From: a virus
Taxonomy: Duplodnaviria > Heunggongvirae > Uroviricota > Caudoviricetes
Length of the DNA: 5,343 bases
IMG/VR virus record: IMGVR_UViG_2526164632_000018
Strand: one strand, 5' to 3'
Every line of letters starts with the position of its first letter. The stretch's first letter is position 1. The position numbers were made by a program, and so were the translations under genes. This document shows positions 778-2,091 of the stretch, in pieces. Under the pieces are notes generated by a model, which did no database searches, was not told the origin of the DNA, and saw only the letters and a list, made by a program, of their open reading frames with translations.

Positions 778-2091
778 TCATTCTCCTGTTCTGCCTGTAT
801 CACTGCCCACTTCATTCAGCCCCTTAACATCCTGCCACGGCCCGTCACCAAACCTGACCTGCAAATGCTGAAACAGCCCCTGAACCTGTGTGGCATCTTT
901 GGGGTCAAGAAAGGTCAGTCCGGTGATGAGTGCGCCATCTGTATCCGGGAACCAGCCATTGCTGTTTGTCTCAATAATGCTCGCCGGCCCCAGACGAAAA
1001 CGGATTTGTGTCTCCCCCGGGTCGCCCTTTGGTCCCTGAGGTCCGGTTGCCCCCACCGGGCCAGCCGCACCTGTTTCTCCTTTCGGTCCCTGTGGGCCTG
1101 CCGGACCTGCCGCACCGGTATCTCCCTTTGGACCCTGTGGACCTGCATTTCCCGTCAGACCGGTCTCTCCCCGCTCTCCCCTGTCGCCTTTCGGCCCCTG
1201 CGGGCCTGCCGGACCAGCATCACCTGCCGGTCCCCGCTCACCGGTTGCCCCGACAGGACCGGTGTCGCCACGCTCTCCTTTATCTCCCTTCGGCCCCTGA
1301 GGACCCGCGGGCCCCGGTTCCCCCTTTGGCCCGGGAGGTCCCACCACGGTGGGGATTCGGTTTACGGCGTCTTCCGCCGCTATCCTGCTTTGTTCCGCTG
1401 ACTGTGCGCTTTCTGCTGACTCCCGGGCTTTTTCTGTTGCGGTCGTTGCATCCCTGGCTGCATTACCGGCTGCACTTTCTGCCGTCTTTCTTGACAATTC
1501 AGCTTCTGCTGCACTTTGTGATGACTCACTGGCTTTTTGAGCGGCCGCAGAAGCCGAGGACGAGGACGCATCCTCTGACTGCTTTGCTGAGGCTGCACTT
1601 TCTGCCGCCTGCCGGGCTGACTCCGATGCCTCCCCTGCTGAAGTGTCAGCATTTGCAGCGCTCTCTTCTGCCTGACTGGCTGATATGCCGGCATTCCTCG
1701 CTGACGTCTCCGCCTCTCCGGCATTCTTCTTCGCCTCCTCAGCGTTACGCGCCACCTCTTCCACCATCAGTTCAAAACGGCGCAGTGCCTCCGGCCGGAC
1801 ATCATCCTCCGTCATTGCACCGAGGAAATCATTCAGTGTGCCCGGCTTTGAGTCCTCATACACGGTGATAATCCCGGCGTGTGACGGCGGAAATCCCTCC
1901 ACCAACAGACTGACGCTGTACTGTCCGTACTCAACGTCCATGCTGTAACGCCCGGCTTCATCCGGATTTTCTGAGGCCAGGGTGTTCACCACCACCGTGG
2001 TGCTGTTACGTCTGGCTTTCAGCTGAATTGTGCAGTTCTGTACCGGTTTTCCTGTGCCGTCTTTCAGTACACCTGAAATCTTTACTGCCAT
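778..2091 (-). CDS. stf: Side tail fibre protein (lambda Stf-like N-terminus) with an Ala/Ser/Glu-rich linker, a collagen-like Gly-X-Y triple-helix region and a short distinct C-terminal domain
   Basis: N-terminus [37 protein letters not shown]… is near-identical to lambda Stf as I recall it. The start is probably the ATG at 2089-2091 preceded by GGGGTGAAT (the track's ORF begins at an upstream GTG at 2097). The long ORF occupies the position after lom, as in lambda. Confidence 0.9.
1012..1341 (-). repeat. Collagen-like coding repeat: about 36 uninterrupted Gly-X-Y triplets ([19 protein letters not shown]…[11 protein letters not shown]) inside the tail-fibre gene
   Basis: Direct reading of the translation; at DNA level this is a GC-rich run of GGN-CCN-NNN codons, which also explains the spurious Pro-rich ORFs on the opposite strand. 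Confidence 0.85.

What the first reader, a model, noticed from the sequence alone, without database searches (positions are those of the whole stretch)
1350..1746. Ala/Ser/Glu-rich low-complexity linker with degenerate DNA repeats in the tail fibre
Residues about 118-250 (…[82 protein letters not shown]…) form a compositionally biased segment reminiscent of the repetitive shaft region of lambda Stf. The underlying DNA shows reiterated motifs and could be another site of in-frame length variation or a recombination junction between fibre modules.
Basis: seen in the sequence. Interest (0 to 1): 0.2.

Follow-up and report, generated by a model that had tools for sequence, protein, structure and literature searches.

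The report
Coiled-coil shaft of prophage tail fibre

Summary
On the minus strand, window 1348-1746 encodes a segment that is 32% Ala, 19% Ser and 14% Glu. It lies in a 437-aa side tail fibre gene (778-2091) in a J-lom-stf-chaperone prophage tail module.

It is not a linker. Residues 98-244 form 21 uninterrupted heptads (x-A-x-x-S-A-x). AlphaFold2 predicts this stretch as its most confident helix.

The protein is 96% identical, without indels, to the EHEC prophage protein EPclA and to the phage 434 side tail fibre. Ghosh et al. 2012 showed that this region of EPclA ("PCoil") is a trimeric, reversibly melting alpha-helical coiled coil, a rod of about 15 nm hinged to the collagen helix. Ur-lambda Stf has the same N-terminal collar domain followed by a 37-heptad version.

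The "degenerate DNA repeats" are a 21-nt periodicity that the protein sequence explains fully. There is no tandem array.

A few short exact direct repeats (17, 10 and 7 nt) flank the rare in-frame deletions found in homologues (41, 28 and 63 codons). The full-length allele dominates, and the collagen domain is the truly length-variable part.

DNA homology to lambda-type stf genes ends at the N-terminal edge of the segment (1739-1747 or 1670).

Verdict: already known, low interest.

The parts
778..2091 (-). Side tail fibre gene (EPclA type, 437 aa; ATG at 2091, stop codon 778-780)
   Evidence: ORF list. Pfam hits PF08400, PF01391 and PF06820. It is 421/437 identical to VT1-Sakai H0004 and 422/437 to phage 434 side tail fibre, with no indels.
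1819..2091 (-). PfN globular 'collar' domain (residues 1-91)
   Evidence: PF08400 E = 1.6e-69. Residues 1-94 match PDB 9e7m/9mgh, the Ur-lambda Stf N-domain, at E = 5.8e-51. Domain limits follow PMC12617516.
1360..1800 (-). Alpha-helical coiled coil: 21 uninterrupted heptads x-A-x-x-S-A-x (residues 98-244). It contains the finding.
   Evidence: Heptad layout and Fourier test. Constant Ala phase of about -140 degrees throughout. AlphaFold2 helices 98-171 and 177-244 with pLDDT 72-93. Published coiled-coil predictions for residues 101-245, alpha-helical CD of the PfN-PCoil fragment, and a SEC-MALLS trimer.
1342..1689 (-). 'PCoil' as delimited by Ghosh et al. 2012 (116 aa, residues 135-250)
   Evidence: Table 2 of PMC3368898. 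The gene-specific parts of their PfN-reverse and PfN-PCoil-reverse cloning primers match the window exactly at 1672-1683 and 1342-1353, and their forward primer at 2074-2091.
1342..1359 (-). Coil-to-collagen junction RIPTVV (residues 245-250), the hinge seen by EM
   Evidence: Invariant in 22 aligned homologues. Hinge described in PMC3368898.
1009..1341 (-). Collagen triple-helix domain, 37 Gly-X-Y triplets (residues 251-361); the main length-variable part of the fibre
   Evidence: PF01391. A 45-nt tandem repeat at 1056-1146. Homologues carry 4-45 triplets.
814..1005 (-). PfC C-terminal trimerisation / distal domain (residues 363-426)
   Evidence: PF06820 E = 1.1e-35. Trimeric by SEC-MALLS in PMC3368898.
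1468..1484 (.). 17-nt exact direct repeat, distal copy (GGCTGCACTTTCTGCCG on the + strand)
   Evidence: It exceeds all shuffles. Together with the copy at 1591-1607 it flanks the 123-nt (41-codon) deletion seen in L002/P0002.
1591..1607 (.). 17-nt exact direct repeat, proximal copy. Its inner 10 nt (1592-1601) also pair with 1508-1517 to flank the 84-nt (28-codon) deletion.
1423..1429 (.). 7-nt direct repeat CCGGGCT. With the copy at 1612-1618 it flanks the 189-nt (63-codon) deletion.
1739..1747 (.). Mosaic junction: DNA homology to lambda stf and to many lambda-type stf genes ends here (heptad 3 of the coil). A second recurrent end lies at 1670.
   Evidence: blastn against lambda ends at 1742. 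In 49 IMG/VR loci the N-terminal HSP ends at 1739-1747 (17 loci), at 1670 (30 loci), or singly at 1666 and 1678.
507..776 (-). 89-aa tail fibre assembly chaperone gene downstream of stf
   Evidence: Annotated as such in the phage 434 record. PF06820 hit on the orthologue in L002. Translation.

Best explanation
Window 1348-1746 (minus strand) encodes most of the proximal shaft of a lambdoid-prophage side tail fibre. This shaft is the 'PCoil' domain of an EPclA-type protein (PfN-PCoil-collagen-PfC).

Three chains associate through about 21 heptads whose core positions are Ala (a and d), with Ser at g and charged residues outside. Together they form a parallel trimeric alpha-helical coiled coil about 15-20 nm long.

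The coil appears to do three things:
1. It trimerises the three otherwise monomeric N-terminal PfN domains. [quoted passage not shown]
2. It acts as a stiff spacer that projects the collagen helix and the distal PfC head away from the tail.
3. It ends in a short hinge (RIPTVV) where the chains change from in-register helices to the staggered collagen triple helix.

The 21-nt periodicity of the DNA is simply the footprint of the heptad pattern. A few short exact direct repeats within it occasionally cause in-frame deletions by slippage or short-homology recombination. The start of the coil is where lambda-type and 434/EPclA-type fibre modules are joined.

Shown by experiment on a 96%-identical protein: helicity, trimer state, reversible melting near 50 C, rod shape and the hinge. 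Shown here: heptad register, conservation, helix prediction, deletion junctions and the mosaic boundary. Inferred: parallel in-register packing, collar docking in this prophage, and the spacer role.
For: Heptad pattern:
- 21 uninterrupted heptads; Ala power at period 3.5 reached by 0/2000 shuffles.
- Ala phase constant along the whole segment.
- The phase stays roughly constant for most of the way from the shared anchor to the first proline (7-55 heptads) in most of the 50-odd diverse PF08400 proteins examined, though several show local excursions.

Structure prediction: AlphaFold2 gives helices 98-171 and 177-244, which are the best-scoring part of the model (pLDDT 72-93).

Identity to the characterised protein:
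- Pfam architecture PF08400 + collagen + PF06820.
- 421/437 identity to VT1-Sakai H0004, with the same 437/116/111 lengths as EPclA.
- The published cloning primers match the window exactly.

Published experiments (PMC3368898):
- The PfN-PCoil fragment is a trimer while PfN alone is a monomer.
- The CD spectrum is alpha-helical, with a reversible transition at 49-52 C.
- EM shows a 14-16 nm thick stalk and a hinge.

Related fibres:
- Ur-lambda Stf residues 1-94 are solved as a 12-copy collar with three linkers per fibre, and residues 102-393 are modelled as a trimeric coiled coil.
- phi24B gp61, an EPclB-type fibre, becomes a trimeric coiled coil from residue 100, with about 20 nm seen in cryo-EM.

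DNA level:
- The DNA periodicity is explained by the protein.
- Deletion junctions coincide with direct repeats.
Against: - No structure of this coil at atomic resolution exists. Strand orientation and register are inferred.
- The core lacks the Leu/Ile/Val of canonical coiled coils.
- The AlphaFold2 monomer bends the helix at residues 172-176 (SEDAS, just before the SSSS run). This could be a monomer-prediction artefact or a real weak point.
- Ghosh et al. found that collagen melting is independent of PCoil, so the coil is not needed to stabilise the triple helix.
- Alleles with 41- and 2-residue deletions shift the heptad phase by about 103 and 206 degrees yet persist in several genomes. Strict register is therefore either not essential or those alleles are defective.
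- Whether this particular prophage, which has an IS2 nearby, makes virions is unknown.
Confidence: 0.93

Rival explanations
1. The segment is an intrinsically disordered, compositionally biased linker that merely tethers the N-terminal and collagen domains.
For: The composition is low-complexity, at 65% Ala+Ser+Glu. There is almost no Leu/Ile/Val. Pfam has no model for it; only a weak, below-threshold Borrelia_P83 hit.
Against: The strict 3.5/7-residue periodicity has a constant phase over 147 residues. A confident helix is predicted. [quoted passage not shown]
Confidence: 0.02
2. The segment is primarily a DNA-level repeat array, a hot spot whose function is to generate in-frame length variants of the fibre, like a contingency locus.
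For: Short exact direct repeats of 17, 10 and 7 nt flank the 41-, 28- and 63-codon deletions seen in homologues. A one-heptad and a 2-codon deletion were also found. Among 120 cluster representatives, 24 carry a shortened coil. The commonest class, del41, uses the longest repeat even though it breaks the heptad phase.
Against: TRF detects no tandem array. The 21-nt periodicity is fully explained by the protein sequence. Exact allele-specific patterns in IMG/VR gave 118 full-length, 1 del41 and 0 del63. In 715 E. coli records the best copy is always full length at 92.7% identity or more. No expansions were seen, only deletions. The collagen domain varies far more.
Confidence: 0.07
3. The segment's main significance is as a recombination junction, where fibre modules are exchanged using the low-complexity sequence as shared homology.
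For: DNA homology to lambda stf ends at 1742. In IMG/VR loci the conserved 5' block ends at 1739-1747 (17 loci) or 1670 (30 loci), both in the first six heptads. One N-domain, over 90% identical, is joined to fibres of 239-1200 aa. A different N-domain carries its own coil plus the same collagen/PfC end (L032/L033).
Against: The junction is confined to the N-terminal edge. The remaining 300 nt or so are inherited as one block with the collagen start. C-terminal swaps (PF06820 against PF13884) occur after the coil and within or after collagen. There is no collinear similarity between this coil and the lambda coil that could serve as recombination substrate: the best match is 16 nt. A boundary of homology does not by itself show that crossovers happen there preferentially.
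Confidence: 0.35

Closest known systems
PCoil domain of EPclA (EHEC prophage collagen-like protein A, e.g. ECs2717/ECs2941/Z0982), Ghosh et al. 2012, PLoS One 7:e37872
   Same: The architecture and lengths are identical: 437 aa, PCoil 116 aa, collagen 111 aa. The Ala/Ser/Glu composition is the same. Identity to the Sp15 (VT1-Sakai) copy is 96% with no indels. The published primers anneal exactly. The prophage context J-lom-stf is the same.
   Different: Only point substitutions: 6 within residues 98-250 relative to VT1-Sakai. This copy sits next to an IS2 insertion.
Side (lateral) tail fibre of phages 434 and lambda_2B8
   Same: Nucleotide identity is 96.9% to phage 434 and 95.9% to 2B8 over the whole gene. 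The protein is 422/437 identical to the 434 fibre. The same chaperone gene lies downstream.
   Different: These are free-living or inducible phages, whereas the window is a prophage copy of unknown activity.
Proximal coiled-coil domain of Ur-lambda gpStf (residues 102-393), PMC12617516; PDB 9e7m/9mgh for residues 1-94
   Same: The N-terminal collar domain is homologous (E = 5.8e-51). The x-A-x-x-S-A-x heptad has the same phase relative to that domain. It plays the same role as the trimeric proximal shaft.
   Different: Lambda has 37 heptads against 21 here. There is no collinear DNA or sequence homology past window 1742. Lambda continues with PF03406 repeats, a hinge and a gp37-like distal rod, whereas this fibre continues with collagen and PfC.
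phi24B gp61 / 933W L0121 / EPclB-type fibre of short-tailed Stx phages
   Same: It has a trimeric coiled coil starting near residue 100, followed by collagen and the same PfC end.
   Different: It has a different N-terminal domain and a different coil sequence (109 aa), and two collagen runs separated by a Pf2 repeat.
Coiled-coil 'neck' plus collagen arrangement of collectins and macrophage scavenger receptor (from general knowledge, not tested here)
   Same: [quoted passage not shown]
   Different: These proteins are unrelated in sequence. The order of domains and the role in nucleating the triple helix differ. In EPclA the collagen melts independently of PCoil.

Membership tests
EPclA-type prophage side tail fibre (PfN-PCoil-Col-PfC) | N-terminal PfN domain (Pfam PF08400) | tested here: met
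   PF08400 E = 1.6e-69, covering profile positions 1-133 of 134.
EPclA-type prophage side tail fibre (PfN-PCoil-Col-PfC) | Low-complexity Ala/Ser/Glu PCoil of 116 aa between PfN and collagen, with a heptad pattern | tested here: met
   Residues 135-250 are Ala 31%, Ser 21% and Glu 13%; there are 21 heptads. The paper reports Ala 32%, Ser 19%, Glu 13%.
EPclA-type prophage side tail fibre (PfN-PCoil-Col-PfC) | A single uninterrupted (Gly-X-Y)n domain; 111 aa in the common allele | tested here: met
   37 triplets at residues 251-361.
EPclA-type prophage side tail fibre (PfN-PCoil-Col-PfC) | C-terminal PfC domain (PF06820) | tested here: met
   PF06820 E = 1.1e-35, covering profile positions 1-64 of 64.
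EPclA-type prophage side tail fibre (PfN-PCoil-Col-PfC) | More than 90% identity to the O157 Sakai/EDL933 copies | tested here: met
   421/437 identical to VT1-Sakai (Sp15) H0004. The coil DNA is 98.7% identical to an EDL933 copy (H97).
EPclA-type prophage side tail fibre (PfN-PCoil-Col-PfC) | Trimeric assembly with an alpha-helical PCoil | not testable with these tools
   Only a monomer prediction was possible, and it gives a helix over 98-244. Trimer and CD evidence come from PMC3368898 on a near-identical protein.
Alpha-helical coiled coil | Heptad (3.5-residue) periodicity of core positions maintained over many turns | tested here: met
   Ala power 20.5 at period 3.5, reached by 0/2000 shuffles; the phase is constant.
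Alpha-helical coiled coil | Canonical hydrophobic (Leu/Ile/Val) a/d core | tested here: not met
   The core positions are Ala/Ala with Ser at g, and only 5 Leu/Ile/Val occur in 133 residues. This is a known peculiarity of PCoil, noted in the paper's abstract. The experimental helicity and trimer state stand regardless.
Lambda Stf family | Homologous N-terminal collar domain | tested here: met
   PDB 9e7m chain (Stf 1-94) E = 5.8e-51; DNA is 88.6% identical to lambda up to window 1742.
Lambda Stf family | Collinear homology of the shaft and PF03406 repeats / gp37-like distal part | tested here: not met
   There is no HSP beyond 1742; the best coil-to-coil DNA match is 16 nt. Pfam finds no PF03406. 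The two share the N-module and the kind of shaft, not the rest.
Tandem-repeat / contingency locus | Head-to-tail DNA repeat array with copy-number polymorphism | tested here: not met
   TRF finds nothing in 1350-1746. The periodicity is explained by the protein. Variants are rare deletions between dispersed short repeats.

The most novel reading that the evidence does not exclude
The register-breaking alleles are functional fibres. These are the 41-residue deletion between the 17-nt repeats, found with seven different collagen lengths, and the 2-residue deletion in the Ser run. If they work, an Ala/Ser-core trimeric coiled coil would tolerate one- and two-residue phase skips. Repeat-mediated deletion in the coil would then join collagen triplet gain and loss as a second way for lambdoid prophages to tune side-fibre reach. 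This goes beyond, and partly contradicts, the published statement that PCoil lengths differ only by multiples of seven.
Probability: 0.2. Interest if true: 0.3.

Novelty: already known. Interest (0 to 1): 0.08.

Why it matters
It matters mainly for annotation. Low-complexity Ala/Ser/Glu stretches after a PF08400 domain should be labelled as the trimeric coiled-coil shaft (PCoil) of side tail fibres, not as disordered linkers or repeat arrays. The long open reading frames they create in other frames should be ignored.

The segment is very common. It occurs in 708 of 5426 complete E. coli genomes, typically in about 8 copies per genome, mostly in EHEC/STEC strains. Its near-identical copies are potential substrates for recombination between prophages.

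For phage engineering, the junction at heptads 3-6 marks a natural place where lambda-type and 434/EPclA-type fibre modules are joined.

Nothing here changes current understanding.

Tried and rejected
1. Tandem repeat array. TRF at minimum score 30 found nothing in the segment, so this was rejected.

2. DNA repeats as evidence of recent duplication. Synonymous-codon and within-column shuffles remove the signal, so this was rejected except for the 17-nt repeat.

3. Collinear homology to the lambda coil. blastn at E 1e-5 and blastn-short with word size 7 gave only matches of 16 nt or less. The dot-plot excess is modest (99 windows against 60 +/- 15) and sits on one heptad phase. The two coils share periodicity, not alignment.

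4. Delimiting coiled coils in distant homologues by composition windows. Two attempts failed, because single His/Tyr residues or the RPEALRRF start broke them. They were replaced by phase tracking up to the first proline. An earlier register-path score was too ambiguous between registers 0 and 3.

5. Counting del41 alleles in complete E. coli genomes with a junction-spanning query. The tool joined the two half-matches of full-length alleles into one place, so the count does not discriminate. I relied on exact-pattern scans of IMG/VR instead. Those scans miss alleles that carry any substitution in the pattern.

6. An overlapping gene in another frame. Stop-free runs in four of the five alternative frames are within what codon-shuffled controls give. 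One opposite-strand frame (296 codons) is reached by only 1.4% of shuffles, not significant after correction for five frames. Rejected.

7. Sequence search of the PDB for the coil itself. Only collagen chains and the Stf N-domain matched; no solved structure covers the coil.

Full report
**Context.** All genes relevant to the finding lie on the minus strand.
- 2822-5338 encodes the C-terminal 838 residues of a lambda J-like central fibre.
- 2156-2755 encodes an Ail/Lom outer-membrane protein.
- 778-2091 encodes a 437-aa side tail fibre.
- 507-776 encodes an 89-aa fibre assembly chaperone.
- The left end (16-282, plus strand) is the end of an IS2 transposase.

The fibre gene is 96.9% identical in DNA to the side tail fibre of phage 434. 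It is 95.8-96.9% identical to the fibre genes of many Stx-converting phages. The true start is the ATG at 2091, as in all homologues. In standard numbering the finding is residues 116-248.

**The observation.** The segment is 32% Ala, 19% Ser and 14% Glu, with five Leu/Ile/Val in 133 residues. Written in sevens from residue 98, the sequence forms 21 heptads without a single insertion or deletion. The pattern is x-A-x-x-S-A-x, with Ala in 15 of 21 heptads at each of two positions and Ser in 12 of 21 at a third. The Ala Fourier power at period 3.5 is 20.5, and none of 2000 shuffles reached it. The phase of that periodicity stays near -140 degrees across the whole stretch.

**The DNA signal.**
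- There is a significant 21-nt periodicity (z = 7.6 against codon shuffles), and a dot-plot shows an excess of diagonals at multiples of 21 nt.
- Tandem Repeats Finder reports nothing in the segment.
- The periodicity is no stronger than expected once the amino-acid sequence is fixed: z = 1.2 for the synonymous shuffle and z = 1.5 for the within-column shuffle.
- The 'degenerate DNA repeats' are therefore the footprint of a protein heptad, not relics of DNA duplication.
- The one exception is an exact 17-nt direct repeat at 1468-1484 and 1591-1607. It is longer than anything in 200 shuffles under each of the three nulls.

**What it is.** Pfam gives PF08400 (prophage tail fibre N-terminal), a collagen domain and PF06820 (fibre C-terminus), with nothing significant for the segment itself. 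AlphaFold2 on a 22-sequence alignment predicts helices 98-171 and 177-244. These are the most confident part of an otherwise poor model (pLDDT 72-93). The bend at 172-176 is what a single chain does with a long amphipathic helix, so I treat it as a monomer artefact. It does coincide with the least regular heptads (SED ASSSS).

The literature settles the matter. Ghosh et al. 2012 (PMC3368898) studied exactly this protein type, EPclA of E. coli O157:H7: 437 aa, 'PCoil' 116 aa, collagen 111 aa. They describe the same low-complexity region with the same composition and an Ala-x-x-Ala/Ser-x-x-Ser heptad. They report:
- high coiled-coil scores for residues 101-245;
- a trimeric PfN-PCoil fragment, against a monomeric PfN;
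- a strongly alpha-helical CD spectrum with a reversible transition at 49-52 C;
- in rotary-shadowing EM, a 14-16 nm thick stalk hinged to a thinner 30-nm collagen stalk.

The window protein is 421/437 identical, without indels, to the Sp15/VT1-Sakai copy. The gene-specific parts of the authors' three cloning primers match the window exactly at 2074-2091, 1672-1683 and 1342-1353. The finding is therefore the PCoil domain.

**Relation to lambda Stf.**
- The first 94 residues match the Ur-lambda Stf N-domain solved in PDB 9e7m/9mgh (E = 5.8e-51).
- In that work (PMC12617516), twelve N-domains form a collar around the tail. Three flexible linkers lead into each of four fibres. Residues 102-393 are modelled as a trimeric proximal coiled coil.
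- Laid out from the shared anchor, lambda Stf shows the same heptad for 37 repeats.
- DNA homology between the window and lambda stops at window 1742. Sensitive searches find nothing collinear between the two coils, only an excess of short matches on one heptad phase.
- In most of about 50 diverse proteins with this N-domain, the Ala phase stays roughly constant for most of the way from the anchor to the first proline, over 7 to 55 heptads. Several show local excursions.
- The related short-tailed Stx phage phi24B also shows a trimeric coiled coil from residue 100 in cryo-EM. Its authors note that lambda_2B8 lateral fibres share the collagen and C-terminal part. The 2B8 fibre gene is 95.9% identical to the window gene.

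**Length variation.** Among 120 cluster representatives of close homologues:
- 87 keep the full coil;
- 13 lack 41 residues;
- 7 lack 63 residues;
- 2 lack 28 residues;
- 2 lack 2 residues.

IMG/VR loci add a one-heptad deletion. DNA alignment of three variants shows that each deletion removes the sequence between two short direct repeats present in the window and keeps one copy. The repeats are 17 nt for the 123-nt deletion, 10 nt for the 84-nt deletion and 7 nt for the 189-nt deletion.

The 28- and 63-residue deletions preserve the heptad phase. The 41- and 2-residue deletions shift it by about one and two residues. This qualifies the published statement that PCoil lengths differ by multiples of seven.

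These variants are rare. Exact allele-specific patterns in IMG/VR gave 118 full-length, 1 del41 and 0 del63. The best copy in each of 715 E. coli records is full length. By contrast, the collagen domain ranges from 4 to 45 triplets and contains a true 45-nt tandem repeat.

**Module junctions.**
- In IMG/VR loci that share only the 5' part of the gene, the homology block ends at window 1739-1747 in 17 loci, at 1670 in 30 loci, and singly at 1666 and 1678. All lie within the first six heptads.
- Alternative C-terminal modules (PF06820, PF13884 peptidase S74) are attached after the same coil and collagen start.
- A different N-domain can carry its own coil and the same collagen/PfC end.
- The N-terminal edge of the finding is thus a real mosaic boundary; the rest of it is not.

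**Mechanism.** The best-supported reading is a parallel trimeric Ala/Ser-core coiled coil with three roles. It brings three PfN domains together for docking on the tail collar. It serves as a stiff proximal shaft of about 15-20 nm. It hands over, through the invariant RIPTVV hinge, to the collagen helix and the PfC head.
- Shown by published experiments on a near-identical protein: helicity, trimer state, melting behaviour, rod shape and the hinge.
- Computed here: periodicity, conservation and helix prediction.
- Inferred: strand orientation, collar docking in this prophage and the spacer role.

The disordered-linker reading is contradicted by those data. The repeat hot-spot and recombination-junction readings describe minor, real side properties rather than what the segment is.

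**Verdict.** The feature is real, correctly located and significant, but already described and experimentally characterised. Interest is low. The only points beyond the literature are these:
- the DNA periodicity is purely protein-driven;
- the deletion junctions map to short direct repeats;
- out-of-phase alleles exist;
- the mosaic boundary has been localised.

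Noticed in passing
window 1-293: This is the end of an IS2 element (transposase C-terminus at 16-282, PF13683). IS-free strains align from about 293/294 onward and carry nleB2 downstream of the fibre operon, so the IS has inserted into the effector-cargo region of the prophage.
   Followed up: partly
window 1009-1341: The collagen domain has 37 Gly-X-Y triplets and a 45-nt, 2-copy tandem repeat at 1056-1146. Homologues range from 4 to 45 triplets, which makes this the real length-variable part of the fibre.
   Followed up: partly
window 1008-1868 (+), 454-1401 (+), 1380-1724 (-): Long 'shadow' ORFs cross the coil and collagen DNA. For the coil and collagen DNA (778-2091), stop-free runs in four of the five alternative frames are within what codon-shuffled controls give; one opposite-strand frame (296 codons) is reached by only 1.4% of shuffles, not significant after correction for five frames. 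I read them as composition artefacts. The lambda record annotates a similar opposite-strand ORF (orf206b) over its own coil.
   Followed up: yes
P0002/L002 and P0114 (homologues): The 41- and 2-residue coil deletions shift the heptad phase by about 103 and 206 degrees, contrary to the 'multiples of seven' rule stated in the 2012 paper. The del41 allele occurs with seven different collagen lengths.
   Followed up: partly
P0095 (homologue, 390 aa): A compensated double frameshift replaces about 60 coil residues with Arg/Gln-rich text from another frame, then returns in frame at the collagen. This is a probable pseudogene or sequencing error.
   Followed up: no
L032 vs L033 (EPclB-type loci), residues ~175-190: Two otherwise near-identical fibres differ by a 14-residue (two-heptad) indel, VTAAGNAEESSTRA, in their own coiled coil. 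It is flanked by a repeated TRA.
   Followed up: no
P0120 (Salmonella, partial protein): It shows a tandem duplication of most of the PfN domain before a lambda-like Ala/Ser coil.
   Followed up: no
P0092: This fibre of the Shigella/E. coli type is labelled 'collagen-like surface-anchored protein SclE [Streptococcus pneumoniae]' and sits on a 3.5-Mb contig. This is probably a mislabelled or contaminated assembly.
   Followed up: no
window 3253-3295: A 19-nt tandem repeat of 2.3 copies (84% matches) lies inside the J gene.
   Followed up: no
E. coli complete genomes: The coil segment occurs in 708 of 5426 genomes, with a median of 8 and up to 12 copies per genome at 92.7% identity or more (all but one record at 95% or more). 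This is a large pool of near-identical sequence for recombination between prophages.
   Followed up: partly
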